From Candidatus Bathyarchaeota archaeon (GTDB lineage Archaea; Thermoproteota; Bathyarchaeia; TCS64): DNA of 35,631 nucleotides. The stretch spans positions 1 through 35,631 of the forward strand of contig JBDRQD010000077.1 of assembly GCA_043826455.1 (NCBI GenBank), read 5' to 3'. Below, piece by piece: positions 3-35,466 of this stretch. Below the pieces are notes generated by a model, which saw only the letters and a list, made by a program, of their open reading frames with translations, made no database searches and was not told the origin of the DNA. A program made the translations under genes and the position numbers. Positions within the stretch are counted from its first letter, which is position 1. The number at the start of each line of letters is the position of its first letter.

Positions 3-836
3 GATCGGTAGGCCGTGGTAGGGGGCGCAGTACTCCTGGGTGGGGCACCAGCTCATCCCGTAGTAGTCCTCGGTGCCTGTGCCCACGAGGCTGGGCAGCT
101 TCTCTCCGTCTATGTAGATCATGTCGTCGCCTTCGCCGTACCAGTTGAACTTGTCAGTTTTCCGGAGGTTGACGACGTTGACGTTGCAGCCCACGTAGTG
201 GCCTTTGCCCTCGGCCTCCAGCAGCAGGTAGTTGCCCTTACCGTCCGGGTTCTCTCCCTCGAACATCCAGGTCCTGTTGGGGACCCCTCTATCGCTTATA
301 CCGTCTGTGGGGTTCTCCCTGCGCCACATGGCGTGGAACCTGCCCAGGCCGTCCCCGGGCTTGCTCCACTCCTCGTAGTCCACGTAGTAGTAGAAGCTGG
401 CCACCTGCCTCTCGCCCTGGTTCTCCAGGGTGATGCGGGCGCCCTTGCCGTAGGGCATGGGCCACCAGCAGTTGAAGCCCTTGCCGTCCTCGGGGCTCAT
501 CTGGAGGGGTGCCGAGGCGTAGTTTCTGGTGAGGCCGTGACCGATGCCGAAGAAGTCGCCTATGGGGGCTTCTACGCTGGGCTCTTTCTCGTCGTCCCAG
601 TGCATGCGGAGCACCAGCTTCCTGAGGTACCACTCCTCCTCGCTGCGTATGGTGACCCAGATGTGTTTGACGCAGCCTGGGCCCTTCATCTCGGCGAGGA
701 CGGCGGTCTCACCCGGCTGAACGACTATGTAGTCCCTGTTGCCGCCGGTGCGGTCGTAGCTGCTGAACCTGCGTCGGCGGTGGTCCTTGAGGCGGGGGAT
801 GTCGGATAGTTCTCCGCCTAGGCCTGATGAGGACAT
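3..836 (-). CDS. DUF2961 / glycoside hydrolase family 172-like protein, truncated at the window edge
   Basis: Manual minus-strand translation from ATG at 836: MSSSGLGGELSDIPRLKDHRRRRFSSYDRTGGNRD...GPGCVKHIWVT...LRMHWDDEKEPSVEAPIGDFFG...NCWWPMPY...WYGEGDDMIYIDGE...GTGTEDYY. These are typical DUF2961 motifs. Absent from the ORF track because the stop lies outside the window. Confidence 0.85.
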   Translation of the reverse strand, partial: MSSSGLGGELSDIPRLKDHRRRRFSSYDRTGGNRDYIVVQPGETAVLAEMKGPGCVKHIWVTIRSEEEWYLRKLVLRMHWDDEKEPSVEAPIGDFFGIGHGLTRNYASAPLQMSPEDGKGFNCWWPMPYGKGARITLENQGERQVASFYYYVDYEEWSKPGDGLGRFHAMWRRENPTDGISDRGVPNRTWMFEGENPDGKGNYLLLEAEGKGHYVGCNVNVVNLRKTDKFNWYGEGDDMIYIDGEKLPSLVGTGTEDYYGMSWCPTQEYCAPYHGLPI

Positions 837-920
837 GTTGCTCGTGTGGATAGGTGTTGGGTGACGGGAAAAGACTTGGGTTCGTTTGCCTTGTTTGTGT
901 CTTGGCCTGGTTTTATGTTT

Positions 921-1046
921 CTGTGTGTGCGTGGGTGGGGGGGAGGGGGGGTCCCGTCGCCGCCGCCACTTTTCCCGTTTTTCTGGCTTGTTTTTTGGTT
1001 TAGAGGATTTCTAGGTGTTCTTTTGGCGGCGGCGGATGGCGGTGGT
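921..1046. repeat. Dispersed non-coding repeat family B, copy 1
   Basis: Shares TGTGTGTGCGTG..GGGGAGGGGGGG, GAGG.TTTCTAGG.GTTCTTT(T)GGCGG and GGCGGTGGT with 2451-2575. Stem 958-968/1024-1034. Confidence 0.75.
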
Positions 1047-1069
1047 GTCCGCCGGGTGCCGGTGGGCGA

Positions 1070-1660
1070 CTATTTTCTCTGTCTGTACAGGTCTGGGGAT
1101 ACGACCCTGGCCATGGCTTCCTGGTCTAGGGTTCCGCCGAGGAACTCGTTGACTCGTCTTACTGTTGGCCATGGGTCGTTTATGGTCTCGTTGTAGTCCA
1201 CGTGTAGTGTGTCCATGTTGGGCTGTCTCTTCAGCCACTCCTGGGTCTCGGCGAGGTGTCTCCTGTAGAGGGTCGCCATGGTTTCGTCGGTTGGGCTGTC
1301 AGGTGGCTCTCCTCGGCGCTCCATCATCTTTCTTTGGCTGGCGAGGACTTCGGAGACGTCTCTATGCATGAAGATGATCCTGTACTTGTGGTCTGGTGGC
1401 AGGTGTCTGAGGAGCATGCTGATGATCTTGACGGCTTTTCCCTCGGCCTCTCCGAGCCAGGAGGCGTCCCTGTCCAGATGCTTCACATGCTCGTACTCCA
1501 GGTAGCCTCGCAGGTTGTCCTCGTCTGCTTCTCGCTGGTTGTCCGTGAGGACCTCTACGCCTCCCGCCTGGAGCATGCTCATCATCATGCTGGTGCCGCT
1601 GCGGGGTAGCCCCGATACCACTGTGATCATCGGCTCGACTCTGCTGGAATATGGCTCCAC
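1070..1660 (-). CDS. Sulfotransferase family protein (start possibly at the internal MITVVSG)
   Basis: PAPS-binding loop VVSGLPRSGTSMMM, followed by IIFMHRD..EVLASQ and VDYNET. Confidence 0.85.
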   Translation of the reverse strand: MEPYSSRVEPMITVVSGLPRSGTSMMMSMLQAGGVEVLTDNQREADEDNLRGYLEYEHVKHLDRDASWLGEAEGKAVKIISMLLRHLPPDHKYRIIFMHRDVSEVLASQRKMMERRGEPPDSPTDETMATLYRRHLAETQEWLKRQPNMDTLHVDYNETINDPWPTVRRVNEFLGGTLDQEAMARVVSPDLYRQRK

Positions 1661-1742
1661 GGTATAAAAAACCCCGCGGTCACCTGTTTTCAGGTTTGTT
1701 TACGGTGGCCCGGCGCTAAATTTATAACAAACCGTCTGGTGT

Positions 1743-2036
1743 TTGTTGAGGATGGTACGCTTCATCATCTTCCTGGAGATGACCGCCGAGTTCCTCAAGC
1801 TGCCCCTGGAGGAGAGGCAGGCGTTCATCCCCCTGTGGAACCAGGTAGCGACCAAGTACGGTATTAAGATGCTTTTCTGGGGGCTGCCTACGGGGGTGAC
1901 GGAGCATGTGGTCATCGTCTACGAGCTTGTGGGGAACCAGGAGCTGTTCTTCGTGTTTCAGAGGGAGTGGCTTGGGCTGGGTACGCCTGAGGCGGGTAAG
2001 TTTATCCGGAATACGCGTACCATCATCGTGCACTGA
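1743..2036 (+). CDS. Small hypothetical protein, possibly a ferredoxin-like alpha/beta barrel; likely start ATG 1752
   Basis: 97-aa ORF with backbone-like codon usage and a TATA-like TTTATAA about 25-30 nt upstream. Confidence 0.65.
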   Translation: MLRMVRFIIFLEMTAEFLKLPLEERQAFIPLWNQVATKYGIKMLFWGLPTGVTEHVVIVYELVGNQELFFVFQREWLGLGTPEAGKFIRNTRTIIVH

Positions 2037-2079
2037 TGGTCAGGTTATAGGCCGCCACGTGGCCCGGGTTGCAGAAACC

Positions 2080-2108
2080 AGGTTCACCACTGAAACGTGG
2101 TGAAGCCT
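2080..2108. other. Intergenic hairpin
   Basis: AGG-TTCACCAC tgaaac GTGGTGAA-GCCT: 8-bp perfect stem that extends past a bulge. Confidence 0.5.
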
Positions 2109-2134
2109 CTCATCCCGGAATGGTAAGGAATAGG

Positions 2135-2372
2135 AGATGGAGGAGGATTTGATATTCTTTTTTGGCCGGGTTTCGCGGTCATCTGCTTCGTCTGGGTCGG
2201 TTGTACCGTCTTAATGATGGAAATATTCTCCATTGGGTAGTACCCCCCTACCTTTTTTCACGCACGGCCCCTGATCTCATCGGCGTCATTGCTACGTGGT
2301 GACTAGTTTTATGACTGAAAAAACTGCCATAAAATGATACCCCCCTACTTTTTTTTCACATCCGGTCTCTAC
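2135..2372. repeat. Dispersed non-coding repeat family A, copy 1
   Basis: Aligns with 31370-31595. Two internal TACCCCCCTACYTTTTTT units (2241, 2338) flank the inverted repeat TTTTATG...CATAAAA. Confidence 0.8.
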
Positions 2373-2417
2373 TGTGCTGTGCTTTTGGTATTGAATGGGC
2401 CGTTCATCAATGGTGGG

Positions 2418-2442
2418 GGGGGTTCGAACCCACTCCACGCAC
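2418..2442 (+). repeat. tRNA 3'-end-like fragment (att-like, Leu type)
   Basis: GGGGGTTCGAACCCACTCCACGCAC, nearly identical to 6262-6284. Confidence 0.6.
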
Positions 2443-2450
2443 TTTTGTTG

Positions 2451-2575
2451 TTGTGTGTGCGTGTGGGGGAGGGGGGGGTACCACCATCGCCATCGCGTTT
2501 CCACGGTTTTAGGCTCTTTTAGCCGATCGGAGGCTTTCTAGGGGTTCTTTGGCGGTGATGGTGGTCGGCGGTGGT
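2451..2575. repeat. Dispersed non-coding repeat family B, copy 2
   Basis: Homologous to 921-1046. Stem 2480-2491/2554-2565. Confidence 0.75.
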
Positions 2576-2725
2576 AAACCGGCTATCACCGTGACGAGGG
2601 TGGCGAGGCGGTGTGCGGCGGCAGGGAAGTCCTACGAGTCGAGGAGTGTGTGTTAGATAGACGTGTTGGCCATCCTGTGCTGTCTCGGTAAGATCCAGTT
2701 GGGTCTCAGCGTTTTATGTGTTCGC

Positions 2726-2808
2726 GCGGATGTTCCCGAGTGGCCAAAGGGGTCAGGCTTAGAACCTGATGGACTAGTCCTCCGTGGGTTCGAACCCCAC
2801 CCCACATG
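2726..2808 (+). tRNA. tRNA-Leu(TAG) with a non-complementary 3' acceptor strand (possible pseudo-tRNA)
   Basis: 5' GCGGATG; D arm CCCGAGTGGCCAAAGGGG; anticodon arm TCAGG-CT TAG AA-CCTGA; variable arm GGAC-TA-GTCC; T arm GTGGG-TTCGAAC-CCCAC. The 3' strand is CCCACAT instead of the expected CATCCGC. Confidence 0.85.
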
Positions 2809-2856
2809 TAGTTAATATTTTATCTTTAACTGAACAGTGACATCCTCAGGGATTCT

Positions 2857-3690
2857 ATGAGTAGACTGGAAGGAAAGACTGCGCTCATTACAGGTGCAGC
2901 TAGTGGAATAGGAGCAGCAACATCGAGACTATTTGTTGAAGAAGGTGCAAAGGTTCTGCTAACCGATATCATGGACGATGATGGAACAGCTTTAGCCGAT
3001 GAGCTTGGCCCCAACGCTCACTATCTTCACGTTGACGTCTCCAAAGAGAAACAGATCAAGAAGGCAGTTCAACGCTGTGTGGATGAGTGGGGAAAACTCG
3101 ACATTATCTTCAACAACGCTGGCTTTGGAGGAGTACTCGGATCAATAACTGAGATCACTGAACAAGGAATAGACAAAACAATAGACGTCCTCTTCAAAGG
3201 AGTATTGTACGGGGTTAAACACGCTGCGATAGTAATGAAGAGGCAAGGATATGGCTCAATTATTAACAATGCAAGCACAGCTGGAATACGCACAGGCAAC
3301 GGCCCTCACATATACAGCGCCTGCAAGGCAGCGGTAATACAGTTGACTAAAACCGTTGCCTCAGAGATCGGTAAGGATGGCATACGAGTGAACTGTGTCT
3401 GTCCTGGAGGCATTGCTACCCCTATCTTTCTTCGCAGCTTTGGGTATTCCCAAGAAGTCGCTGAGGCTAACCTTGATTTTCTTGAAAGAATGTTAGGTCG
3501 GGGTAGTCATATTGGTCGCTGTGGCACTCCGATGGATGTCGCTAAGGCTGTTCTGTGGCTCGCAAGCGATGACTCGACGTATATTACAGGTCAACCCATT
3601 GTGGTTAGCGGTGGTTCAACAAATGGTGGATTATGGGAAGACATTGAGATACATTTCCGTGCACGTGTAGAAAAAGAAATCAATAAATGA
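2857..3690 (+). CDS. Short-chain dehydrogenase/reductase (SDR)
   Basis: TGAASGIG, NNAG, catalytic YSACK and IRVNCVCPG. Confidence 0.95.
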   Translation: MSRLEGKTALITGAASGIGAATSRLFVEEGAKVLLTDIMDDDGTALADELGPNAHYLHVDVSKEKQIKKAVQRCVDEWGKLDIIFNNAGFGGVLGSITEITEQGIDKTIDVLFKGVLYGVKHAAIVMKRQGYGSIINNASTAGIRTGNGPHIYSACKAAVIQLTKTVASEIGKDGIRVNCVCPGGIATPIFLRSFGYSQEVAEANLDFLERMLGRGSHIGRCGTPMDVAKAVLWLASDDSTYITGQPIVVSGGSTNGGLWEDIEIHFRARVEKEINK

Positions 3691-3700
3691 ATGCTACTAA

Positions 3701-3717
3701 CTTTTATCCCTTTTTTT
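3701..3717 (+). terminator. T-rich archaeal terminator after the SDR gene
   Basis: CTTTTATCCCTTTTTTT directly after the stop codon. Confidence 0.5.
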
Positions 3718-3774
3718 ACGAATCCTCTGTGTGTTTTATAGTTGAGTGATCAGAGACACACCATCGTTGGCATA

Positions 3775-3849
3775 GAAGAATCCAGCTTCGTCATTGGGCA
3801 CCCTCTGGTAATCGATGGAGGACTAAGTCTTGGTTGGAATTGGGAAAAA
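3775..3849 (+). pseudogene. C-terminal remnant of a second SDR gene
   Basis: Translates to EESSFVIGHPLVIDGGLSLGWNWEK, matching the neighbour's DDSTYITGQPIVVSGGSTNGGLWED. In-frame stop at 3739-3741; no N-terminal part. Confidence 0.7.
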
Positions 3850-3868
3850 TATTACGAGAATGAATTAA

Positions 3869-4666
3869 TTACTCTAATCTTCTAGCAAGATCGATCCTCA
3901 GCAAATTAGAGCTGTAACTTCTTGAGACGCCTAGAACTTGTTTAACATCAAGGGATTTGATTGCATCCAGTATCGACTTGTTGAAACCTATGTCCTCCTC
4001 CTTAGGGGCGCCATAGAATATTCTTCCTCTCTGCCCCGACCATACTTCTTTATATGTTGTGTCGCTTGGCGTAGCGATAGGATATGAGCAGTCCGGTTCT
4101 CCATCCATAGCATGGATATACTTGTATCCCAGCATAGGAGCCCCTCGCGGGTTCTGATTCATGGCTTCGATCACCTGTTCAGGCTGCTTGCTCTTTGGCT
4201 CTACCTCTATGCCAAAGAGAAGATTCCCATATAGAGAAACCTCGCATCTGATCTTGCCATCCAGCATGATCCTCGGGTCAGATATGTCGCCGTAAAGCTT
4301 AGGCACACCCAGCAACTCTCTTCCGCCGATAATAGGCATCGTATTGTCCTCATACATAACTACGATGAAGCTTCCCTCAGTCACACCATGTTTTCCCTCA
4401 TGAATCGCTGACACCGATACTGTGGCTATCCTGTATCCTCTTCCTTGTAAGAAGTCCACACCGTCATTGTAGACAAAGGAGGCCGTTACCACGGGTTTTT
4501 CGCTTGGATGATAACAATCCGGGAGCAGTTTCTCTATTTTGCTCGTCGCTGTTAGAAACTGCAGCGCGAAGATCTGACGCTCCCTATAGAGAACGCCACC
4601 ATCTGAGTCAAGCATCATGCCACCCAGCAATGGCATTATGTATACCTTTTTCGGATCTTGTTTCAC
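3869..4666 (-). CDS. Acetoacetate decarboxylase family protein
   Basis: GGRELLGVPK motif with the Schiff-base Lys; N-terminal YIMP. Confidence 0.85.
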   Translation of the reverse strand: MKQDPKKVYIMPLLGGMMLDSDGGVLYRERQIFALQFLTATSKIEKLLPDCYHPSEKPVVTASFVYNDGVDFLQGRGYRIATVSVSAIHEGKHGVTEGSFIVVMYEDNTMPIIGGRELLGVPKLYGDISDPRIMLDGKIRCEVSLYGNLLFGIEVEPKSKQPEQVIEAMNQNPRGAPMLGYKYIHAMDGEPDCSYPIATPSDTTYKEVWSGQRGRIFYGAPKEEDIGFNKSILDAIKSLDVKQVLGVSRSYSSNLLRIDLARRLE

Positions 4667-4746
4667 TTTAAACTACTCCTTTTCTCATCTAAAAATATAC
4701 AGCACTCTTAAAGTCTTTATCCCACTTGGAGTTCCGATTAATAAAA

Positions 4747-4808
4747 AGTGGAGGTTATCGGGAGGCATCTCCACTGAGGGCAGGGTTCGAATCCCATCGA
4801 GCCCGCCA
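4747..4808 (+). repeat. Hairpin plus tRNA 3'-end fragment with CCA (att-like, Arg/Lys type)
   Basis: AGTGGAGGT...ATCTCCACT stem, then GAGGGCAGGGTTCGAATCCCATCGAGCCCGCCA. Confidence 0.7.
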
Positions 4809-4881
4809 TCTACTGAACCGGGCCCTGTCTCAATTCCTTTTCCTGTTGAGGATATACGCGCTGTGCAGAATTGGACGCTTA

Positions 4882-5430
4882 CTAGGCTCTCTTGAACCTT
4901 GTTCTACTCATCTCAGTTACAAAGTATTCTCCCCAGATATGATTCAAGGGTTTAACCTTCTCAACGTCCAATACCTCATCCACTGCGGCATAATCCACTT
5001 CCACCTCCAGTATTTCTCCGAAAATCCAGACAGCTCTCTCCGAGAGCTCAACATATTTAGTCATCCTGCACTCAAACCAGGCATAGGCTTCTTTTATTCG
5101 GGGCGCCTTGACATGGTTTGATTTCTGCTCCGTTAAGCCACATTCCTTTATTTCACTGACCTCATATGGAAAGTCTTTCTCCAGGACCTCCATCAATGGG
5201 CCGAAGCTTTCATCTACAAGGTTTACTACGAACTCCCCGTTCTCCTTTATGTTGGTCCAGGTGTCATGGCTCTTCGTTGACTCGAATCCGAATAACGGCG
5301 TGGGGCGGGTCGCTGCCGGTGAGTTGAAGCTAAAGGGGGCGGCGTTTGAGACCCCGTTTGGGGAGACGGTTGATATTATGACTGTGGGTCTTACCAGTAG
5401 CTTGTAGAACTCTGTTAAATCCAGGTTCAT
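4882..5430 (-). CDS. Flavin reductase-like (flavoredoxin/DIM6-NTAB) FMN-binding protein
   Basis: ISTVSPNGVSNAAPFS, DTWTNIKENGEFVVN and APRIKEAYAWFEC. Confidence 0.9.
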   Translation of the reverse strand: MNLDLTEFYKLLVRPTVIISTVSPNGVSNAAPFSFNSPAATRPTPLFGFESTKSHDTWTNIKENGEFVVNLVDESFGPLMEVLEKDFPYEVSEIKECGLTEQKSNHVKAPRIKEAYAWFECRMTKYVELSERAVWIFGEILEVEVDYAAVDEVLDVEKVKPLNHIWGEYFVTEMSRTRFKRA

Positions 5431-5560
5431 AGCTTTTCGCAGTTTATGAATGACACTTTTGATACATGTGTCTTTGCAGAGGGGGCGCGCCGTGTGATAG
5501 GTTCAAGAATGCATCTGATACAGATTAGATAGTTATTATTTTACATGTAAATCGGTGTCT

Positions 5561-5580
5561 GATCCCTATCCCCCGCACCA
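5561..5580 (+). repeat. Degenerate tRNA-Leu-like 3' end with CCA
   Basis: GATCCCTATCCCCCGCACCA; CCCCCGCA-CCA is the 3' end typical of archaeal tRNA-Leu genes starting GCGGGGG. Confidence 0.55.
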
Positions 5581-5769
5581 TTAACCCAACCCACCGCACT
5601 TGAGGTTATCTACGTTTTTCACTAGCATGAATGTACGGGGGGTTTGACCCCAATCTGATGATGTAATGATTACGGTGGCAGCTTTAGTTGTTCGATGCAG
5701 CTAGCAGGGGAGAAGTCTTAAATCACCCAAAATGAAAATTTCGGGAAGCTACTGAAGAGGAAAGCGGAA

Positions 5770-6132
5770 ATGATCGAGAGCTTCTACTGTGTCAATGTCT
5801 TTACCAATAATATAAAAGAGCTCGTCGAGTTTTACCATGAGAAACTGGAAATCCCGATATTAGGCACGCTGGACGACGACACAAACGGAGTTAACCTCGG
5901 ATTCATTTCGAATGCTCCGATGATATGCATTTGGGATGCCAATAAAGTTGATTCGCCTGTCCAAGGAACGGTCTCCTTCGTTTTTATGTGCGAAAACCTA
6001 GACAAGACATGTGAGGAATTGACCCAAAAAGGCATGACATTCGCCCCGCCAGTTAAATATGAATGGGGTACATACGAGCTACGTCTAAGAGACCCTGACG
6101 AAAATGAAGTCGTGATTGCGGAGCGGTTTTAG
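5770..6132 (+). CDS. VOC (glyoxalase/bleomycin resistance) family protein
   Basis: LVEFYHEKL and PPVKYEWGTYELRLRDPDENEV. Confidence 0.9.
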   Translation: MIESFYCVNVFTNNIKELVEFYHEKLEIPILGTLDDDTNGVNLGFISNAPMICIWDANKVDSPVQGTVSFVFMCENLDKTCEELTQKGMTFAPPVKYEWGTYELRLRDPDENEVVIAERF

Positions 6133-6134
6133 AG

Positions 6135-6230
6135 GACTTAAAACTGATTCTGTACCTTGAAACTGCTCATCTATTAGCTGAAAATGAAAAACAGTTCATA
6201 AAGATGTGACCGAGTTCCTGATAAATAAGA
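6135..6230 (+). pseudogene. Possible frameshifted C-terminal remnant of an alpha/beta hydrolase
   Basis: DLKLILYLETAHLLAENEKQF, then a frame change to KDVTEFLINK. This resembles the catalytic-His and final-helix segment of such enzymes. Confidence 0.35.
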
Positions 6231-6237
6231 AAAGAAT

Positions 6238-6285
6238 GTGGTGATATCACCACTGGCGGTAGGGTTCGAACTCACCCCACGCACA
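6238..6285 (+). repeat. Palindrome plus tRNA-Leu-like 3'-end fragment (att-like); right end of the left array
   Basis: Perfect palindrome GTGGTGATATCACCAC, then TGGCGGTAGGGTTCGAACTCACCCCACGCACA. Confidence 0.7.
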
Positions 6286-6532
6286 AACATAACCTTATCC
6301 TTTTTTAGCTAATTTTTATTGTAGATGATGCAGGCATTACTGCGCCTTCGTAATTTTCTTTTGCCTCTCTCGGCTTTGCCACCATTTCTCTTATATCTAA
6401 TTCACGGAAAAACTCTGAACATGCACGCGCGCGGGCCGGATAAAATCTTTCGGTGACCTCAGACTACTACTTGCTGCACAATAATCGTCTCGAAAAAAGC
6501 CTTAACAGTTCTCGTTCTGGCTCATGAAATAA

Positions 6533-8617
6533 TTATTGGTTGGAGTCCGGTTCGACCTTACCCCAGATATCAGCCACCGGCTTACACGCCTCGTCAAGCA
6601 GGTAGTGTCTGAACCAGTCCAGGTTCTGCTGGATCACGGCCCTGTTCTCCCTGGGCTTGGTGATGGGGTGAGCCATCTCAGGGTAGATGAACATCTCCAC
6701 GGGCACCCCCTTGTCCCTCAGAGCCCTGTACAGCTCCATGCCGTCGCTGAGGGGCACCCTCTGGTCCTTACCGCCGTGCTGGATCAGCATAGGCGTATGC
6801 GCCCGGTCTATGGCGCTCATGGGGGCGGTCCTCTCGTAGACCTCCCCCCGGTCCCAGGGCGTCCCCCCCAGGTAGTGGTCCGTGAAGTAGGGGATGTCGT
6901 TGCTCACCCTGTACGTGTACCAGTCGCTGATACCCGCACCCACACTAACCGCCCTGAACTTGTCGCTATGGAGCCCCACGTAAGCCGAGATGTAGCCGCC
7001 CTGGCTCCACCCCATGCAGCCCACACGCTCCGGGTCCACCATTCCCTTAGCCACCAGGTCGTCCACGGCCGACTCCAGGTCCCACATGTCCCCCAGGCCC
7101 AGGTTATCCCTGTTCAGCTCCAGGAACGCCTGCCCGTACCCCGTGCTGCCCCTGTAGTTAGGCTTCAACACAAGGACGCCGTCGTTCACCAGCTGCACCG
7201 GAGGATACCTCTGATAATCGTAGGGCTCCAGGAGGAACCCGCGGCTGGCCGTGGAAGGACCCCCATGAACCTGGAAGACCAGCGGATACTTCCTAGAAGG
7301 ATCATAGCCCCTCGGCTTCCTGAGGACCCCCTCGACGACCGCCCCGTCCCTCGACCTCCACCGAATGGTCTCCACCTCACCCAGGCTCCACCCCCTCACC
7401 TGGGCACCGTAGTCCGTGAGCCTCCTAACCCCCTTCATGCACCCGGCGGGCTCGCCGCTGGCGTACACCTCGGGGAAAGACTCAGGGCCATTGCCTATGA
7501 ACGCCAGATGACCCTCACCGTTCATAGAAACAGTGGGCCCAGGGTACAGGGGTAGGCTAAGCTCAGCCGCCTCACCCTCCACGGACAGGTGAGCTAAGGC
7601 GGTCCCTGTGCCCTTATCGTAGAACACGTATACCCCCTCCCTTGTCCACCAGGCCTGGTTCACCCTCTGATCCAGGCCCCCCGACACCTTCACCATCAAC
7701 GGCTCCAGGGGCTTGGACAGGTCGGCTCCCCGCAGATCCACGGCCCAGAGGTCCGCCTGGGTGTAGGACATGTTATCCCGCTCCTTGTGGCTCACGAGCA
7801 GACTCGACTCGTCGGGGCTCACGGCCACCACGCTGCTCACCTTGGGCAGCTGAAGCATGGTGGCCCTGCCGTGCCAGTCCTCGCCCCCCGCCACCAGGTA
7901 CGCCGATGACTCGTAGTTCACCTTCAGCTTGAAGCTGGTGACCTGGTCCCAGTAGACCAGGGGGTCCCTGCTCCTGCAGTTCACGATGCACCCGTCGCTG
8001 GTAGCGACGAAGTCCAGCACCTTCATGGGCCTCCCCAGGAGCCTTGACACCTCCAACACAGGCTTGGCCACCTTCTTGGCCTCGTCCTCCGTCAGGCCTA
8101 CGACCCTCCGGTTGTACTCCCTGAGGTAGGGTAGACTCACGTACCACAGGGCAGAGGCGCTGTCCTCCGACTCGAAGTGGGTGACGTCGCCGTAGACGTC
8201 CCTGACGCCGCTTCGCTTGCTCCTCTCAGGGTGCTCCGCAGAGTAAAGAACCCCATTCTCGGTGGGCTTGAAGGCATCTACCCCTGTCTCCACGTCGGTC
8301 ACCTGGAGAGGCTCACCCGCCAGTATCTGGAAGAGCCAGACCTGGGCCTTGCCGCCCCTGTCCCAGAGGGCCAGGAGGCTCTCGTCGGTCATCCACTCCA
8401 TCTGGGTGACGTTGCCGGTCCGGGTCAACTGCACCTGCTTCCCAGTATCCAAACAGTGCACGAACAGCCTGTGCTCGTACCTGTTGTCGCGCCAGTTGGT
8501 GGTCCTAACCCTGAAGGCGACCCTGCGGCCGCCCGGGCTGCTCTTCGCCTCCTCGGGGTACTCCAATGATACGAGGTCTGACACCGAGGGGCTGTAGCCT
8601 GATGACGCCATAACCAT
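6533..8617 (-). CDS. S9 family peptidase (acylaminoacyl/dipeptidyl aminopeptidase)
   Basis: VHGGP, NYRGSTGYG, nucleophile GWSQGG, DQRVP and terminal His (EMAH); N-terminal propeller region. Confidence 0.95.
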   Translation of the reverse strand: MVMASSGYSPSVSDLVSLEYPEEAKSSPGGRRVAFRVRTTNWRDNRYEHRLFVHCLDTGKQVQLTRTGNVTQMEWMTDESLLALWDRGGKAQVWLFQILAGEPLQVTDVETGVDAFKPTENGVLYSAEHPERSKRSGVRDVYGDVTHFESEDSASALWYVSLPYLREYNRRVVGLTEDEAKKVAKPVLEVSRLLGRPMKVLDFVATSDGCIVNCRSRDPLVYWDQVTSFKLKVNYESSAYLVAGGEDWHGRATMLQLPKVSSVVAVSPDESSLLVSHKERDNMSYTQADLWAVDLRGADLSKPLEPLMVKVSGGLDQRVNQAWWTREGVYVFYDKGTGTALAHLSVEGEAAELSLPLYPGPTVSMNGEGHLAFIGNGPESFPEVYASGEPAGCMKGVRRLTDYGAQVRGWSLGEVETIRWRSRDGAVVEGVLRKPRGYDPSRKYPLVFQVHGGPSTASRGFLLEPYDYQRYPPVQLVNDGVLVLKPNYRGSTGYGQAFLELNRDNLGLGDMWDLESAVDDLVAKGMVDPERVGCMGWSQGGYISAYVGLHSDKFRAVSVGAGISDWYTYRVSNDIPYFTDHYLGGTPWDRGEVYERTAPMSAIDRAHTPMLIQHGGKDQRVPLSDGMELYRALRDKGVPVEMFIYPEMAHPITKPRENRAVIQQNLDWFRHYLLDEACKPVADIWGKVEPDSNQ

Positions 8618-9076: not shown

Positions 9077-12000
9077 CTAGGGCCGGGGGCCCCTGAGCCA
9101 CCCCAGGATACCCATCTCGTACACGGAGACCTCCACGGGCTCGGACTCACAGTGCTTCAGCTCGCCCGTGTCGTCAAGGTACACTACACAGGACTTCAGG
9201 GTGTAGGACCCCTTGGACAGGGGCTTCATGGACAACTGTATCTCCTCGGTGCTCAGCGGCCCAAGCCTCTTGCCCTTCAAGTCGATGTAGCCGTCCGCTG
9301 CCCCGAAGTACCCTGAGACCCTGACCACCTCAAAGTTCTCGGGCACGATGTCCTCGACCTTGACCAGGGTGGCGGACGCCATCCCTGCGTTGTACAGCTC
9401 GACGATGGCGTCGAAGGCTTCGCCGCTCTTCACATCCGTGGACTTCAGGTAGAGGCTCGCCTGGACGTTGGCGTGCTCAAAGCTCTCGAGGCCGGCGGCG
9501 TACTCGTGGCTGGGGGTCGGCGCGCTGAAGCTCTCAGTGGATGAGGAGATGAGGGGGGCGTTGAGAACATCTATGAGGGCCATGACCAGCGTACGGTCTT
9601 TGCGTATGTTCTCCAGAAGCCTGTATACCTCCTGCTCCTTCGCCGGGTGCTTGGCCCTGAGGAAGGACTTGGCGGAGGCCTCCAGAACCCTCTCAGCCAT
9701 GGCGTAGTACCTGGCCTTTTTCTCCGGCTCCGTCTCGGCGTTGGCGTTGTCCACGTAGACGTAGGCGTCGAACAGCCTCTGGGTGGCCTTTGAGTACTCC
9801 AGGGCCGGCTCGTAGCCCGCCCTCACGTAGTAGTTGGTGGCGTTGGTGAGGTACTGGCTCGCCTTCTGGTAGCTCCCCACGTCCCTGGTGGTCTCGAACT
9901 GTGTGCACTCGTACAGAGCTCGGCAGAAGTTGCTGTGGCCCAGGGACAGGAGCTTGGTCTGCTGGGTCAGGCTGAGGTCCTTGGCCTCCTCGAAGAGCTG
10001 GGCGGCCTCATGGTAGTGCCGTGGAGCGGCATCCGCCTCGGCCAGTGTCATCATCCTCCAGGCCTTGCACAGGGTGATGATGGGTGTTATCTCGTTTCGC
10101 TCCGCATCCATGTCCAGAGCGTTGACGATCCTCTGCAAGATACTGGCTGCCTCATTGTACTTCCTTGAGCTGGCGGCGTGCTCTCCCCGCCTGTTGAGTA
10201 TCCGGGCTTCTTCCAAGGTCATCCTGCTGACGCAGTAGTCGTGCCGTAGCCGTGATGCTTCTATCAGGGACCTGGCCAGCTCCTGCTCGTCCCTCACGCC
10301 GATGCTGTCTATCTGCCCCTCGATGACTTTTCTGCTCTCCTCGAACAGCTCGGCCACCTCGCCGAACAGGTTACTGGCGTCCTCAGTCTTGTCGTCCTGG
10401 CTCAGGGCTTCGGCCTCGGCCAGCCTGGCCCACGCCGAGTAGTTGTTTGAAAGGTAGCCCCACCTGCTGGTGAGCCCGTGCAGCTCCGCGGCCTTCTCGT
10501 AGTGTTCCTTCACTTTGCCGTACTCTTTTTCCAGGTTGTGCTGCTTAGCCTTCTTTATCTCGCTCCAGGCCCTCATGTAGTTGGAGTACTCCGTGTAGAA
10601 CTCCTTGAGGTGAGGTATCTTCTTCGCAGCGTCCTCGTAGCATTGGGCGGCCTGCTCGAACTCCTCCGCGGACTCCGTGTACTGGCCGAGCCTGTTCTTG
10701 ATGTTGGCAGTCTTCCAGTGGGTCTCCGCCACGCGGCTGAGCAGCTCGTTCTCCTGGTACGTCTCACGCATCTCCCTGTAGATGCCGGTGGCCTGATCCA
10801 GGTACTGGGTGTCCTTAGTGGCCGCGTAGAGGTACTCCAAGAGCTCCCCCATCTGCCTCAGGCCCACCGCGTAGTCCAGGGACAGGGCCCGGGAGGGGTT
10901 GGTCTCCAGGTGTATCTTCCCCAGCTCGGCGCACTCCTCGCCCTCCTGGAGCGCCTCCTTGAGGAGGGTGACGCGCTTCTCCTGGTCCTTCTCTATCCTC
11001 GAGTACTCGATCTTTAGCTTGGCTGACTGGAACTTGAACACTGAGTGGTTCCAGTAACGGAAGGGCTGAACCCTGGTGGAGACCTCGATGAGCTCATCCA
11101 CCGTCGATGTGGCCTCCTCTATGAGCCTCCTCTTGTCTTCTTCGACTCTCTCGTATCTGATTAATCCCAGTAGCAGGTGTGAGAGCTCATTCAGAATATA
11201 CAATGTACCCAACTGTGAGCCGTATCTGTGGGCATTTTCGAGGTCTATCTTGGCTACCGCAACACCTTTTCGGTATATTTTCAGTTTAGTCTCCGTCGTG
11301 CTCTCATTCCTTGCCAAGTGGTAGTGGCTGCCAACGTGGTTTATGTAGGCGAGGGTAATCGGCCTCGAGATAGCTTCGTAGAGTTTTATAGCGTTCTCGG
11401 TGTACTGGTACGCTTTCTCGTTCTCAGATACTTGGGTCTCCGGGTCCTCGTCGGTGGTGTTGGTCTTCCAGGCCGTGAGGTAGCCGAGGAGCTCGTAAGC
11501 CTGAGCTTTCAGCAGGGTGTCGCCTGTCTTATCCGCGGACTCCAGCTGAGTGTTGGCCAGTTTTAGCGAGGCTTCGAGGTCGCCGTTTCTCTCGAACGTC
11601 ACGTAGCTCAGAACCCCGCCGGATCTGCCCACCAAGTACGGGTCCCCCAGCCTCTCAGCGTCTTCGTAGGCTCTCTGAGCTGTCTCGAAGCTGGTCTTCA
11701 TGAAGTCCTGCTGCTTCTTTATCGACCCGTAGACCTCCATCGGCTTGTCCAGCAGTATCAGGCTCAGGAGATGTCGTGTCAGGGCGAGTTCAGGCGCATC
11801 CTCCTGGCCGCCAGCTGCTTTATACGCGGCTTCACTGAACTTTATGGCCTCCTCCAAGATCCCTGTCACTTCTTCGTAGTCCCGGATTAGCTCCGACCTG
11901 GAGTACAGGTGGGACAGGAACCCGTTGCACGTTTCCAGGTAGCCCGACGTGTCGCCGATCCTGCTCCACTCCTTCAGGGCTTTCCTGTCTGCCTCGAGGC

Positions 12001-12367
12001 ACCTGTCTAGGCAGTCTTTTCTTTTCTGGGGGTCCTCCATGATCCAGGACTCGAGGTGCGTGGATTGGGCCTGGCAGTGAAGCCTCCTCGCCTTCGATGA
12101 TGGGTGTTTAGTTTTCCCGTATAGTTCGCCGGCTTTTTTGTATGATTCTTGAGCCGGTCCAATTCTGTCCGTGAACTCCTTGTCTGTCTTGGACTGGTAT
12201 GCGGCCCGCTGAAGACATAGGCCTATTCTTTCTTGCACCCTTGCCTTGTCAAAGCTGTCGTTTTCTTGGCCGGTGATCGCCTCTCTGTATCGGTTGGCTG
12301 CCTCTAGCCATCTGTATTTTTTTTCCAGCTCGTGTGCTTCTCTGTGGTTTTTCAGGCTCGGATACAA
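9077..12367 (-). CDS. Large alpha-helical repeat (TPR/SNAP-like) protein with a C-terminal Ig-like domain
   Basis: 1096 aa. Repeated A..Y.KAAEL-type helices. The last ~125 aa are beta-rich (VELYNAG...VEDIVPENFEVV...GSYTLKSCVVYLD). Confidence 0.75.
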   Translation of the reverse strand: MYPSLKNHREAHELEKKYRWLEAANRYREAITGQENDSFDKARVQERIGLCLQRAAYQSKTDKEFTDRIGPAQESYKKAGELYGKTKHPSSKARRLHCQAQSTHLESWIMEDPQKRKDCLDRCLEADRKALKEWSRIGDTSGYLETCNGFLSHLYSRSELIRDYEEVTGILEEAIKFSEAAYKAAGGQEDAPELALTRHLLSLILLDKPMEVYGSIKKQQDFMKTSFETAQRAYEDAERLGDPYLVGRSGGVLSYVTFERNGDLEASLKLANTQLESADKTGDTLLKAQAYELLGYLTAWKTNTTDEDPETQVSENEKAYQYTENAIKLYEAISRPITLAYINHVGSHYHLARNESTTETKLKIYRKGVAVAKIDLENAHRYGSQLGTLYILNELSHLLLGLIRYERVEEDKRRLIEEATSTVDELIEVSTRVQPFRYWNHSVFKFQSAKLKIEYSRIEKDQEKRVTLLKEALQEGEECAELGKIHLETNPSRALSLDYAVGLRQMGELLEYLYAATKDTQYLDQATGIYREMRETYQENELLSRVAETHWKTANIKNRLGQYTESAEEFEQAAQCYEDAAKKIPHLKEFYTEYSNYMRAWSEIKKAKQHNLEKEYGKVKEHYEKAAELHGLTSRWGYLSNNYSAWARLAEAEALSQDDKTEDASNLFGEVAELFEESRKVIEGQIDSIGVRDEQELARSLIEASRLRHDYCVSRMTLEEARILNRRGEHAASSRKYNEAASILQRIVNALDMDAERNEITPIITLCKAWRMMTLAEADAAPRHYHEAAQLFEEAKDLSLTQQTKLLSLGHSNFCRALYECTQFETTRDVGSYQKASQYLTNATNYYVRAGYEPALEYSKATQRLFDAYVYVDNANAETEPEKKARYYAMAERVLEASAKSFLRAKHPAKEQEVYRLLENIRKDRTLVMALIDVLNAPLISSSTESFSAPTPSHEYAAGLESFEHANVQASLYLKSTDVKSGEAFDAIVELYNAGMASATLVKVEDIVPENFEVVRVSGYFGAADGYIDLKGKRLGPLSTEEIQLSMKPLSKGSYTLKSCVVYLDDTGELKHCESEPVEVSVYEMGILGWLRGPRP

Positions 12368-12519
12368 TTTTACGTGTTAATTTAATAGGTTCTTATGAAA
12401 AAAACTTCGCATAGGTTTAGGTATAAATAGTTAAAATTTTAGTAAAATTAAATTGTATTTATGATAAGTAATATATATACACTTTGAAGAACATAACACG
12501 CTTGAAGGAGTTTTAAAGT

Positions 12520-12939
12520 ATGTCAGTAGGTCACGGCGGAGAGTTCAGCAAGCACCCGGCGAACGTAAAGATAGCTATTCTGAGGTTTATAGAGGCCAGA
12601 CTAAAAGACGCGGCAGATTATCTAGAAATACCTGGCATCACTGCAGATAACATAACGATCTACGATCCTTTCACAACAGATATGGACTTTTTCATATTCT
12701 TCAAAGACGTTGGTTGGGAAAACTATCTGAAAATATACAGCAAATACTACGATGAGACCTTTGAAGGCCGTGAAAGGCAAGCAGAGGTTGAAAGCGACTA
12801 CAAGGACATGCCCAAAATTATCAGTATGTTACACGGTGATAGACCAAATGGAGTATTCAATGCGTCTAGATCGAAGTCTGTCATTTACTATACACCAGAA
12901 CAGATGGAAAACATACTGGACCATGGGGACCCCTACTAA
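12520..12939 (+). CDS. Hypothetical protein in an AT-rich patch
   Basis: 139-aa ORF with ATG start and GAAGGAG upstream; no recognisable motif. Confidence 0.65.
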   Translation: MSVGHGGEFSKHPANVKIAILRFIEARLKDAADYLEIPGITADNITIYDPFTTDMDFFIFFKDVGWENYLKIYSKYYDETFEGRERQAEVESDYKDMPKIISMLHGDRPNGVFNASRSKSVIYYTPEQMENILDHGDPY

Positions 12940-12984
12940 CAAATACCTATATTCTCAACTTTTTTCCTCAATTGGCACAATGGC

Positions 12985-14160
12985 TTATACATATATCTGA
13001 ATTACAGTGCCGTCTAATAGCTCCCTGTCTAGCCCTACTTTCTCGTTGTCGAACTTGGCTGATGGGCCCCAGATTCGGGCGTACTTGAACCGCTCATAGA
13101 AGTCGTTGTGTATCATCTTGGCCAAGTCACCCACCGTCACCGCGCCCTTAGCCACAATGGGCTCCTTGGCGGGCTCCTTACCCGGCTCCTTAGTATATAT
13201 CCTCACTATGCCCAAGAGCTCGAAAAGCTTCCTGCCCAAGGCTTCCTGAAGGCCCTTGGATTTCTGGAAGCTGCACACCCCCACCTGGAGGGGCGCCGCC
13301 GACTGCCTCAGCTGATCCACTGTGCCCTGGTCATATCCTAGGTCCGCCTTGTTGGCCAGGACCAGCGTGGGCCTGTAGACGGCGTTGCCGAAGATGGCGC
13401 CCTCCAGCACGTCCAGGGTCACCCTGCCCTTGACCCTGAGGAGGGCGGACCTGATCTTGTACTCGTTGAGGAGGGCCACCACCTCCTCCTTGGTGCAGCC
13501 GTCCAGCTCCCCCTCCCAGATGAACTGGATGTCCCTGCCGTGGCCCCGCTTCTCGATCTCCACCTCGCCCGGGGGCTCCGCCGTGAGTATCCTAGCGTTC
13601 TCCAGCTCCTCCGCCACCATCAGATAGTTGCCCGAGGGATCATCGGCGATGTCCACCACGACTATTATGGCGTCGGCGTTCCTCACCGAGCTGAGGTTCA
13701 TGAAGCCCTCCGTCTTCCCCTCGCTGCTGCCCTCCACTATGGGCGGTATCTCCACCAACTGGAACTGGATGTCCAAGTAGGGCAGCATCCCCGGTGTGGG
13801 CACCGTTGTGCTGAAGGGCCAGTCAGTCACCTCCACGGCGCTGTTGGTCACGGCCCTCAGGAGGCTGCTGCGGCCCACGTTGGGGGGGCCTATGATCGCT
13901 ACCTGGGCGGCCCCCGCTTTGGGGACGTAGTAGCTGGGAGTCGAGCCCTTCCTGCTCTGCTGCAGCCGCTTCTTCTTCTCCGTCTCGTCCCTGATCTGAG
14001 CCATCTGGCGCTTGACCTGACGGCACAGCTTATCGGTTCCCTTGTGCTTGGGCACCAGGCTCAGGAACTCCCCCATGAGGCGGAGGCGCTCCTCCGGGTT
14101 GCGGGTCATGGTGACCTCGTTCCACTTCTGCTTTGCTTCCTGGGGGAGGTTGGTGACCAT
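12985..14160 (-). CDS. DRG/OBG-family GTP-binding protein with TGS domain (variant G motifs)
   Basis: PKHKGT, GPPNVGRSS, PFST, NKAD, C-terminal TGS (IRIYTK...FKYARIWGPSAKF). Confidence 0.9.
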   Translation of the reverse strand: MVTNLPQEAKQKWNEVTMTRNPEERLRLMGEFLSLVPKHKGTDKLCRQVKRQMAQIRDETEKKKRLQQSRKGSTPSYYVPKAGAAQVAIIGPPNVGRSSLLRAVTNSAVEVTDWPFSTTVPTPGMLPYLDIQFQLVEIPPIVEGSSEGKTEGFMNLSSVRNADAIIVVVDIADDPSGNYLMVAEELENARILTAEPPGEVEIEKRGHGRDIQFIWEGELDGCTKEEVVALLNEYKIRSALLRVKGRVTLDVLEGAIFGNAVYRPTLVLANKADLGYDQGTVDQLRQSAAPLQVGVCSFQKSKGLQEALGRKLFELLGIVRIYTKEPGKEPAKEPIVAKGAVTVGDLAKMIHNDFYERFKYARIWGPSAKFDNEKVGLDRELLDGTVIQIYV

Positions 14161-31369: not shown

Positions 31370-31595
31370 GGAGAACGTGAAGAGGATTTGGATCATCTTC
31401 TTTCTTGGTGTTGCGGCCTCGTCGGGGTCGGCTACCCCATTGGTTGAAGAATCCGCCAATGGGGGATTCCACCTACCTTTTTTTCATATACACCCCAGGT
31501 CTCGTCGGCCTCGCGGGATTGGTGACTCGTTTTATGGCTGAAAAAACCACCATAAAATGATACCCCCCTACGTTTTTTACACATCAGGCTCTCAG
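31370..31595. repeat. Dispersed non-coding repeat family A, copy 2
   Basis: GGTGACT.GTTTTATG.CTGAAAAAAC..CCATAAAATGATACCCCCCTAC.TTTTTT.CACATC.GG shared with about 2298-2365. Confidence 0.8.
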
Positions 31596-33236: not shown

Positions 33237-33292
33237 GGTTCACCCATTATTGTTTATTGAAGTTATGGAATATGAGTGGTTCGATCAGAAGG

Positions 33293-33326
33293 TGGCACTG
33301 GGAGTGGGATTCGAACCCATGCGGTT
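33293..33326 (-). repeat. tRNA-Ser-like 3'-end fragment with CCA (att-like); boundary of the right accessory tract
   Basis: Minus strand reads AACCGCATGGGTTCGAATCCCACTCCCAGTGCCA. Confidence 0.75.
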
Positions 33327-33353
33327 AAATTGAATACGATTATTGTCTGAGAG

Positions 33354-33764
33354 ATGAAATTCAACAAGCTCATTCCAGAGCTGTCTGTGACTAATATCCA
33401 AAAAAGTCTACAGTTTTATGTGGATACTCTTGGGTTCACAATCGATTATTCCAGACCCGAGGACAAGTTTTACTTCCTATCATACGAAGGCTCTCAGATA
33501 ATGATCGAGGAAATCAACAACCACTGGTGGACGGGGGAACTTGAACACCCGTTCGGGAGGGGGATCAACTTCCAGATGGAGGTGAGCGACGTATCTGTTC
33601 TCATGGAAAGACTTGATGAAGCTAATATAACTCTGTTCCGTCCTCTGAAAGAGAGCTGGTACAGGGGCGAAGATACCGAGTTTGGCCAGATAGAGTTCCT
33701 CGTACAGGACCCTGATGGATACCTGCTGAGATTTACTCAAGACATTAGGGAGAGAATATTGTAA
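33354..33764 (+). CDS. VOC/bleomycin-resistance family protein
   Basis: LIPELSV, FYVDTLGF, PFGRGINFQ and EFLVQDPDGYLLRF. Confidence 0.92.
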   Translation: MKFNKLIPELSVTNIQKSLQFYVDTLGFTIDYSRPEDKFYFLSYEGSQIMIEEINNHWWTGELEHPFGRGINFQMEVSDVSVLMERLDEANITLFRPLKESWYRGEDTEFGQIEFLVQDPDGYLLRFTQDIRERIL

Positions 33765-33767
33765 GAA

Positions 33768-33818
33768 TGGCTCAGGAAGGGTTATGCACCTAAAATTTTA
33801 TTCTATAATATTCGTTAT
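33768..33818 (-). repeat. About 50-bp direct repeat, copy 1 (degenerate tRNA 3' end plus conserved flank)
   Basis: TGGCTCAGGAAGGGTTATGCACCTAAAATTTTATTCTATAATATTCGTTAT, matching 35341-35392. Confidence 0.85.
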
Positions 33819-33829
33819 GAGGGTTAGAT

Positions 33830-33875
33830 TTTCGGTTAAAACCGAAATTTTCTGTAAATACCGAAAATTTAAATA
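33830..33875 (+). promoter_or_regulatory. Two tandem inverted-repeat operators abutting the TATA box of the TA operon
   Basis: TTTCGGT-taaa-ACCGAAA and AAATTTTCTGT-aaat-ACCGAAAATTT, then TTTAAATA about 25 nt before the start. Confidence 0.7.
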
Positions 33876-33900
33876 GAGGACGCATTTGAATTAAATTGAG

Positions 33901-35300: not shown

Positions 35301-35340
35301 TTAAACAAGCCTGGTTTCGACAAACATGATTTAAATTATT

Positions 35341-35392
35341 TGGCGCAGGGAGTGGTATGCACCTAAAATTTTATTCTATTGATATTCATTAT
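35341..35392 (-). repeat. About 50-bp direct repeat, copy 2 (tRNA-Ser-like 3' end CCACTCCCTGCGCCA)
   Basis: TGGCGCAGGGAGTGGTATGCACCTAAAATTTTATTCTATTGATATTCATTAT. Confidence 0.85.
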
Positions 35393-35436
35393 TGGGCGCG
35401 CGCTTACAGGTATAATTTTCCTGTGTTTATCAAGTT

Positions 35437-35466
35437 GAGCGGAAGGGATTCGAAACCCGGCGGTTT
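35437..35466 (-). repeat. Degenerate tRNA T-arm fragment
   Basis: Plus strand GGGATTCGAAACCCGGCGGTT compared with GGGATTCGAACCCATGCGGTT at 33306-33326. Confidence 0.6.

What the first reader, a model, noticed from the sequence alone, without database searches (positions are those of the whole stretch)
2726..6285. Candidate integron-like cassette array delimited by tRNA 3'-end mimics, anchored at tRNA-Leu
Seen: downstream of tRNA-Leu, AT-richer units of only 1-2 genes in mixed orientation (SDR plus Adc-like; flavin reductase; VOC) are separated by tRNA-3'-end fragments at 4781-4808, 5561-5580 and 6260-6285, all on the same strand as the tRNA. The fragments look derived from different tRNAs (CGAGCCCG-CCA, CCCCCGCA-CCA, CCCACGCA). 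The units are only 0.7-2 kb and no integrase is present. Known: tyrosine integrases use tRNA T-arm/3' ends as att cores, but such islands are usually larger and carry their own int. Inference: a trans-acting recombinase may capture mini-cassettes using tRNA-end sites in the role of attC.
Basis: partly seen in the sequence, partly recalled or inferred. Interest (0 to 1): 0.8.

Follow-up and report, generated by a model that had tools for sequence, protein, structure and literature searches.

The report
Stacked gene cassettes at tRNA-derived sites
In this archaeon a row of one- or two-gene units is separated by recombination sites copied from tRNA ends; the same sites border small, reshuffled units in many relatives and can be traced to two families of small integrase-carrying elements, so the row works somewhat like an integron but is not one.

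Summary
The sites are real att sites; the reading needs three corrections. (1) The 'tRNA-Leu' at 2726 is a dead, probably foreign copy; the intact gene lies on another contig. (2) Each tRNA tail follows a conserved palindromic arm of one of two families: arm B (4739, 6219) or arm A (5537). Tails come from two isotypes (Arg, Leu). (3) These are double-strand-type att sites, not attC. Arm B occurs in 97 of 301 class genomes. Neighbouring sites share a strand (94 pairs against 2), about 1.2 kb apart, nearly always without an integrase. Five complete 1.9-11 kb elements tie arm B to one tyrosine-integrase clade; one complete element ties arm A to another. The last codons of the B-type integrase gene seem to survive at 4830-4862. 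Whole units have different neighbours in relatives, and a related population breaks from this window at 4783, 5540-5552 and 6273. Best reading: accretion of small integrase elements at tRNA T-loops, loss of the integrase, then partial re-mobilisation in trans. No circle was seen. The scan noted similar arrays before on other DNA; the listings I saw name no integrase clade.

The parts
2410..2442 (+).
   Evidence: (inverted repeat I1 with 2784-2807)
2452..2574 (+). Copy of a ~135-bp dispersed repeat (43 copies in the genome, 8 of 46 tRNA genes have one within 60 nt downstream)
2726..2806 (+). Degenerate tRNA-Leu(TAG) copy: acceptor stem broken, TATA-like box decayed, variable arm like G003/G004/G017 rather than this genome's intact copy
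2804..2810 (+). Probable stump of the arm-A right palindrome (ACATGT variant); the tRNA end plus this stump looks like the L035 junction with 12 nt missing (inference)
2857..3690 (+). Cargo: short-chain dehydrogenase
   Evidence: PF13561 E 7e-63
3869..4666 (-). Cargo: acetoacetate-decarboxylase-like protein
   Evidence: PF06314 E 2e-30
4739..4782 (+). Arm B: A-rich stretch, 12-bp palindrome, fixed 8-nt spacer
   Evidence: 53 bits
4783..4808 (+). T-loop core plus tRNA-Arg(GCG) 3' tail (25 of 26)
   Evidence: breakpoint in run X4
4809..4829 (+). Right arm of an Arg(GCG)-targeting element; the same sequence follows tRNA-Arg(GCG) in L043 and L352, directly before a convergent integrase
4830..4862 (-). 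Probable remnant of the last ten codons and stop of a B-type integrase gene (score 10.2, at the threshold used)
4882..5430 (-). Cargo: flavin-reductase-like protein
   Evidence: PF01613 E 3e-23
5537..5555 (+). Arm A: 12-bp palindrome (ACATGT variant) in front of the core
   Evidence: 25 bits
5556..5580 (+). Decayed T-loop core plus tRNA-Leu(CAG)-type 3' tail (20 of 25)
   Evidence: breakpoint in run X4
5633..5660 (+). Motif that lies about 20 nt behind arm-B cores in 5 of 311 sites; probable left end of the VOC unit, its own core decayed
   Evidence: joint 6271-5633 in run X4
5770..6132 (+). Cargo: VOC/glyoxalase-family protein
   Evidence: PF00903 E 2e-10
6219..6261 (+). Arm B, second copy
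   Evidence: 43 bits
6262..6284 (+). T-loop core plus Leu-type 3' tail
   Evidence: breakpoint in run X4

Best explanation
The row is a stack of small units left by two families of tyrosine-integrase elements that recombine at the T-loop/3' end of tRNA genes. Each boundary is a hybrid att site: the element's left arm (A or B), the shared T-loop core, and the tRNA-like tail of the next, older unit. Shown by sequence: the two arm families, their complete integrase-bearing versions, the co-oriented arrays, integrase stumps behind some cores, and units with changed neighbours. Inferred: an element inserts at a tRNA or at any older hybrid site with the same core, which is why an Arg tail sits in a Leu-type row; most then lose the integrase by deletion and keep or gain one or two metabolic genes. 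Because both ends survive, a helper element passing through (arm B) or the resident A-type integrase at tRNA-Leu(TAA) (arm A) can still excise and re-insert single units or runs of units in trans. In this window the pseudo-tRNA is a passenger rather than the anchor, and the flavin-reductase unit is a chimera with a B-type left end and an A-type right end.
For: Arm B: 97 of 301 class genomes, reversed-pattern control 0 in every row; 311 distinct sites, best shuffled score 8.2 against a threshold of 16; 94 same-strand neighbouring pairs against 2 opposite, median 1.18 kb, 93 of 94 with no integrase frame of 250 aa or more between them; 63 of 119 units hold one ORF, 230 proteins fall in 205 clusters. 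Complete elements tRNA - convergent integrase - cargo - arm B + tRNA end: L132 (Arg, 4.6 kb), L349 (Ser, 1.9 kb), L382 (Ala, 4.3 kb), L383 (Pro, 6.2 kb), L384 (Ala, 11.4 kb), all matching the profile of one clade (SH-aLRT 99 in a quick tree that holds the L132 protein). Integrase end stumps behind 22 of 299 cores, against 1 of 299 on the wrong strand and 0 of 241 at +300 nt. Arm A: complete 5.4-kb element L396, and the palindrome follows a tRNA-Leu-type end at 10 of 13 loci of the second integrase. Reshuffling: thymidylate-synthase and methyltransferase units are 86% alike from core to core in L031 and L057 with different neighbours, and the DEAD-helicase gene precedes the methyltransferase unit in one and follows it in the other. 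Run X4 contigs leave or join this window at 4783, 5552, 5540, 6274 and 6273. The matching locus of G013 has no tRNA copy and no arms. This genome has only stumps of the B-type integrase; 42 of the 97 arm-B genomes have no full copy at E 1e-25.
Against: No circle or empty-site joint was seen in the run holding this sequence (contigs only, rare forms are dropped). No recombination was tested. Several arms are decayed, including those of the shared thymidylate-synthase unit. The flavin-reductase gene in G003 is 86% alike but has other ends, and the DEAD unit's borders do not fall on arms, so cargo is not always moved as a fixed cassette. Of 24 B-type integrase loci examined only 2 showed a complete arm-B element; 2 more had an arm B, 2 had a different arm, 18 showed no far end in the DNA fetched; L382-L384 were picked because arm and integrase were close. 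Three arm-B loci carry integrases of other clades (L052, L218, L186). The X4 evidence is from metagenome contigs I could not read, which may mix populations or be misjoined at repeats. Clear order change rests on one pair of loci.
Confidence: 0.6

Rival explanations
1. Pure decay. Each unit is the fixed scar of a once-autonomous island (a CIME). It never moves alone again; differences between relatives come from new insertions at the head, deletions, and homologous recombination between similar sites.
For: Integrase stumps behind 22 of 299 cores and at 4830-4862; decayed arms and tails, 127 of 250 tails no longer match a tRNA within 2 changes; chimeric ends of the flavin-reductase unit; the same pattern is described for Prochlorococcus islands and streptococcal CIMEs.
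Against: Core-to-core homology with swapped neighbours and one order reversal; insertions or swaps at internal sites of this row in X4; 277 of 299 sites show no stump; the arm keeps a fixed 8-nt spacer in 250 of 311 sites, although part of that is built in by the search pattern.
Confidence: 0.3
2. A true integron-like platform: a dedicated, conserved host recombinase captures genes into these sites, and the integrase-bearing elements are secondary users.
For: Single-gene units, very diverse cargo, co-oriented sites; arm B is present in genomes without a detectable B-type integrase.
Against: No integrase beside the arrays: upstream genes are MFS, racemase, kinase, eRF1, peptidase. No tyrosine recombinase match in 9 of 41 relatives, including one 96% complete. 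The one short candidate tested is in 6 of 41. Cargo orientation is even, 122 against 108.
Confidence: 0.07
3. Chance likeness or misassembly at tRNA repeats.
For: The assembly has 7% contamination and contigs of run X1 break at the tRNA copy.
Against: Two overlapping X1 contigs cover 500-8500 with no differences (X1 may be the source, so not independent); arms recur in hundreds of loci with zero control hits.
Confidence: 0.03

Closest known systems
CIMEs and site-specific accretion in streptococci (review PMC5704250, passages read; Pavlovic 2004 seen only as a reference there)
   Same: Elements that lost integration genes but kept att sites, stacked in tandem at a tRNA end, with chimeric att sites that can still recombine across integrase types.
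   Different: Here the parents are 2-11 kb elements in which I saw no conjugation module (not searched for), the units are about 1.2 kb, rows hold up to 8 arm-B sites, and one arm is shared across a class and several tRNA isotypes.
Tycheposon islands of Prochlorococcus (bioRxiv 10.1101/2020.12.28.424599, four passages read)
   Same: Neighbouring elements parted by partial tRNA copies, newer ones pushing older ones inward, fragmented integrases and scattered partial tRNAs.
   Different: Tycheposons are defined as integrase-carrying elements; the passages I read describe no conserved arm family that borders single-gene units.
Integrons and CALINs, including archaeal ones (bioRxiv 10.1101/2022.02.06.479319, three passages read; no mention of Bathyarchaeia or tRNA in its text)
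   Same: Arrays of short units each closed by one repeated, co-oriented site; order can differ; the recombinase is often not beside the array.
   Different: No attC motif or fold, no IntI, cargo in either orientation, and the target is a tRNA T-loop.
Cryptic integrated elements of Thaumarchaeota (PMC6563490, passages read)
   Same: Small tyrosine-integrase elements at tRNA genes; arrays by re-use of one site are noted as known.
   Different: Those are 2.6-98 kb (median 17 kb) and carry an integrase by definition; most units here are smaller and carry none.
SSV-type (split, 'suicidal') integrases (PMC8371274 passages; PMC7253208 listing and start of abstract only)
   Same: Four loci of the B-type clade have an integrase frame that starts inside the tRNA, and in L058 arm B reads in frame with it.
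   Different: The five complete arm-B elements have an unsplit integrase pointing toward the tRNA, and arm B shows no loss of in-frame stops overall.

Membership tests
Integron / CALIN | IntI-type integrase (extra domain near patch III) beside attI | tested here: not met
   No recombinase in the window. Candidate integrases score 41-74 bits on TIGR02249 against a cut-off of 265; the L132 protein aligns with XerA without a long insert.
Integron / CALIN | attC sites with RYYYAAC...GTTRRRY ends and a single-strand hairpin | tested here: not met
   The motif pair occurs twice in 2000-6600, at neither boundary site; mean folding z of 40 sampled arm-B sites is -0.3 and -0.5, only 4 and 6 below -2.
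Integron / CALIN | Cassette genes mostly in one orientation | tested here: not met
   122 with and 108 against the sites.
Integron / CALIN | Array of short units closed by one co-oriented site, with reordering | tested here: met
   94 against 2 pairs; L031 against L057.
Integron / CALIN | Excision of single cassettes as circles | tested here: inconclusive
   No such joint in four contig sets; contigs drop rare forms.
CIME / tandem accretion | att ends kept, integrase lost | tested here: met
   ends match complete elements.
CIME / tandem accretion | Tandem stack at the 3' end of an intact target gene | tested here: inconclusive
   Met in relatives (L031, L033, L058, L219) and at G000:C75; in this window the tRNA is dead and absent from the X4 allele.
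CIME / tandem accretion | Mobilised in cis by an adjacent conjugative element | not tested
   No search for conjugation genes was run; none is among the Pfam hits.
Tyrosine-integrase tRNA islands (autonomous parents) | Tyrosine recombinase next to the tRNA end and a repeat of the tRNA end at the far border | tested here: met
   L132, L349, L382, L383, L384, L396; not met by the window's own units.
SSV-type split integrase | att site inside the integrase gene, gene split on integration | tested here: inconclusive
   Seen in L058, L355, L356, L116/L117, not in the five complete arm-B elements; in-frame stops in the spacer 17 observed, 16 expected.

The most novel reading that the evidence does not exclude
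Bathyarchaeia run a class-wide, integron-like gene-shuffling system built from tRNA T-loop att sites: single-gene cassettes share a palindromic arm, are excised and re-inserted in trans by integrases of tiny helper elements, move between tRNA isotypes and into older hybrid sites away from tRNAs, and two such systems interleave in one row.
Probability: 0.4. Interest if true: 0.85.

Novelty: new variant of a known kind. Interest (0 to 1): 0.66.

Why it matters
Bathyarchaeia are abundant sediment archaea (abstract of PMC10848311) with very variable accessory metabolism (my own knowledge), and these rows give a concrete route by which single metabolic genes are gained, lost and reordered. The two arms are short, specific markers (no control hits) that let the units be cut out of genomes and metagenomes at scale. 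Naming complete parent elements turns the open question of the missing enzyme into a direct test: two integrases, each with its predicted sites. If trans activity holds, this is convergence on integron-like behaviour with ordinary double-strand att sites, and it supplies small tRNA-targeting integrases for an archaeal class that lacks genetic tools.

Tried and rejected
Integrase beside the anchor tRNA, as intI beside attI: the 400-aa upstream ORFs are housekeeping genes. A conserved host recombinase: the short PF00589 protein of G000:C11 is in 6 of 41 genomes. Arm B in viruses: 0 exact matches in viral contigs, one pattern only. Arm B as a coding 5' piece of a split integrase: in frame in L058 and in-frame starts in 90 of 250 against 45 and 53 in the other frames, but no loss of stops; kept as a possible origin only. 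Spacer pairing with the tail: no better than shuffled. attC fold: not found. Exact homologues of 4700-6350 in the genus: only the flavin-reductase gene, in 4 of 31 genomes. The tree is the quick one; the careful search did not finish. Labels for the accessory genes of L132 (rolling-circle Rep, ribbon-helix-helix, 21-bp repeats) and L349 (RelBE-like pair) are my reading by eye: NCBIfam gave no hit for the Rep-like frame and no Pfam result was obtained for them. Before the counts I dropped 10 loci as duplicates and added 16 stretches of the own genome; those loci were collected because they held an arm, a tRNA or an integrase, so they are not a random sample.
Full report
**What is there.** The window is contig C77 of a 2.95-Mb archaeal genome. 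I take it as Bathyarchaeia because 45 of 53 stretches carrying its site are so titled (one more is titled MCG-6, seven are titled otherwise, and some stretches overlap) and because earlier notes on this genome say so. The tails match this genome's tRNA-Arg(GCG) at 25 of 26 (4783), Leu(CAG) at 20 of 25 (5556) and Leu(TAG) with three differences (6262).

**The anchor is a dead tRNA.** ARAGORN misses it and Rfam shows a broken acceptor stem. The intact Leu(TAG) is on C75. The copy has the variable arm of G003, G004 and G017, not of C75, and its TATA-like box is decayed, so it probably came from another lineage (inference). The matching locus of G013 has the same outer genes with other contents and no tRNA copy or arm.

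**Each tail has a conserved arm.** Arm B, pattern GGWGAYATCWCCAC-N8-GGGTTCRA, precedes 4783 and 6262. Arm A, a TTTAC..GTAAA palindrome, precedes 5556. The genome holds 6 B and 12 A sites. Arm B is in 97 of 301 class genomes with 0 reversed-pattern hits, in at least 124 metagenome stretches and in no viral contig. In 323 collected loci there are 311 distinct sites. Neighbours within 6 kb share a strand in 94 pairs against 2, at a median of 1.18 kb, and 93 of the 94 have no long integrase frame between them. Of 119 units, 63 hold one ORF; orientation is even; 230 proteins form 205 clusters. Rows follow intact tRNA-Leu, -Arg, -Gln, -Ala and others, and L219 has an exact Arg tail inside a Leu row, as here.

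**The parents.** Five complete elements have the layout tRNA, convergent integrase, cargo, arm B, repeat of the tRNA end: L132, L349, L382, L383, L384, of 1.9-11.4 kb. In L132 the DNA after the far site resembles the flank of the empty tRNA-Arg(CCT) in G017. Their integrases fit one profile, a 310-430 aa tyrosine recombinase ending in a FRKRK-like tail; the clade has SH-aLRT 99 in a quick tree, is distantly XerA-like and far below IntI cut-offs, and is in 119 of 301 genomes. Its last codons survive behind 22 of 299 arm-B cores (controls 1 of 299 and 0 of 241), including 4830-4862 here at the threshold score. The 20 nt before that stump match the right arm of Arg(GCG) elements in L043 and L352. 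This genome has only stumps of that integrase. Arm A belongs to a second, 324-aa integrase: L396 is a complete 5.4-kb element, and the palindrome follows a Leu-type end at 10 of 13 loci, including the intact gene at tRNA-Leu(TAA) on C67. The link has limits: only 2 of 24 B-type loci showed a complete arm-B element, L382-L384 were chosen for closeness, and three arm-B loci hold other integrases. Arm and integrase co-occur in 55 genomes, arm alone in 42, integrase alone in 64, neither in 140 (kin are not independent).

**Do units move?** In L031 and L057 two units are 86% alike from one core to the next and then diverge; their neighbours differ, and the DEAD-helicase gene comes before the methyltransferase unit in one row and after it in the other. 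In run X4, at 93-96% identity, one contig joins 2063 to 4783 through 34 letters that look like arm B, so that allele lacks the pseudo-tRNA, SDR and ADC; it leaves the window at 5552. A second contig carries 5540-6274 between other DNA. A third begins its match at 6273 after 4.2 kb of other DNA. All three named sites are thus breakpoints. Against this: no circle or empty site was seen in X1; the X4 contigs could not be read and may mix populations; the DEAD borders are off the arms; and the flavin-reductase gene of G003 has other ends.

**Mechanism.** Shown: two arm families, their autonomous parents, arrays, stumps, changed neighbours. Inferred: insertion at a T-loop core or at any older hybrid site, loss of the integrase, capture or retention of one or two genes, and later excision or insertion in trans (0.6). 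Pure decay without single-unit movement remains a serious rival (0.3). In this window the B system could act between 2786, 4783 and 6262 and the A system between the pseudo-tRNA and 5556, so the units are nested, not three independent cassettes.

**Known systems.** It works partly like an integron but fails the IntI, attC and orientation tests (criteria from passages of bioRxiv 10.1101/2022.02.06.479319). It fits CIME-type accretion (passages of PMC5704250) and the partial-tRNA rows of tycheposon islands (passages of 10.1101/2020.12.28.424599). Arrays by re-use of one site are noted as known in PMC6563490 (passages) and PMC8371274 (passages). Six searches returned no paper describing such arrays or arms in Bathyarchaeia; the passages of PMC10848311 on integrases concern viruses only. 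The library lacks most subscription papers, and I saw no supplements; those of the tycheposon and archaeal-integron preprints could bear on this. The scan itself noted similar integrase-less rows in other Bathyarchaeia genomes (unchecked notes); one says the enzyme is unknown and one mentions an integrase fragment.

**Verdict.** Real, widespread and testable; a new variant of a known kind. Interest 0.66.

Noticed in passing
window 33290-35460 (- strand): A second AT-rich row (VOC, TrmB-like, one unknown ORF) with tRNA-Ser-type fragments at about 35460-35435, 35355-35341 and 33325-33293, and a 23-nt repeat at about 35376 and 33805 that may be a third arm family.
   Followed up: partly
window 920-1054 and 2452-2574: A ~135-bp repeat with 43 copies; 8 of 46 tRNA genes have a co-oriented copy within 60 nt downstream. 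Its start reads on the other strand like a tRNA-Leu 3' end, so it may derive from an att-like site.
   Followed up: partly
window 2241-2358 and 31469-31581: A second dispersed repeat with a C-run/T-run core, on at least 20 contigs.
   Followed up: no
G000:C67:17927-20103: A second pseudo-tRNA case: a Leu(TAA) copy broken at both ends, two genes, then arm A with the Leu(TAA) tail and the repeat; the intact Leu(TAA) with the A-type integrase lies 9 kb away.
   Followed up: partly
G000:C75:1900-11726: A row behind the intact tRNA-Leu(TAG) with three tRNA-end fragments, a B-type integrase stump next to the tRNA, and a thymidylate-synthase gene shared with Leu(TAG) rows of G017 and G004.
   Followed up: partly
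L132:9486-14190: The 4.6-kb parent element has five 21-bp direct repeats and a frame that looks by eye like a rolling-circle initiator; no family hit.
   Followed up: partly
L349:9110-10950: The arm-B palindrome occurs three times in this 1.9-kb element: at the arm, near the integrase start and inside its coding sequence; similar copies lie at the same coding position in L321, L354 and L337. Possibly an operator or arm-type binding site.
   Followed up: partly
L058, L355, L356, L116, L117: The same integrase clade also occurs split, with the frame starting inside the tRNA and only 10-25 codons left at the far site, so split and unsplit layouts coexist in one clade.
   Followed up: partly
window 9077-12367 and 12001-13000: A 1096-aa ORF with no Pfam hit, followed by an AT-rich patch (41-43% GC) with a 139-aa orphan ORF.
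   Followed up: no
L064, L066, L070, L086: Arm B in records titled as bacteria or Thermoplasmatota; L066 is the same contig as G020:C116 of this genus, so at least one title is off.
   Followed up: no
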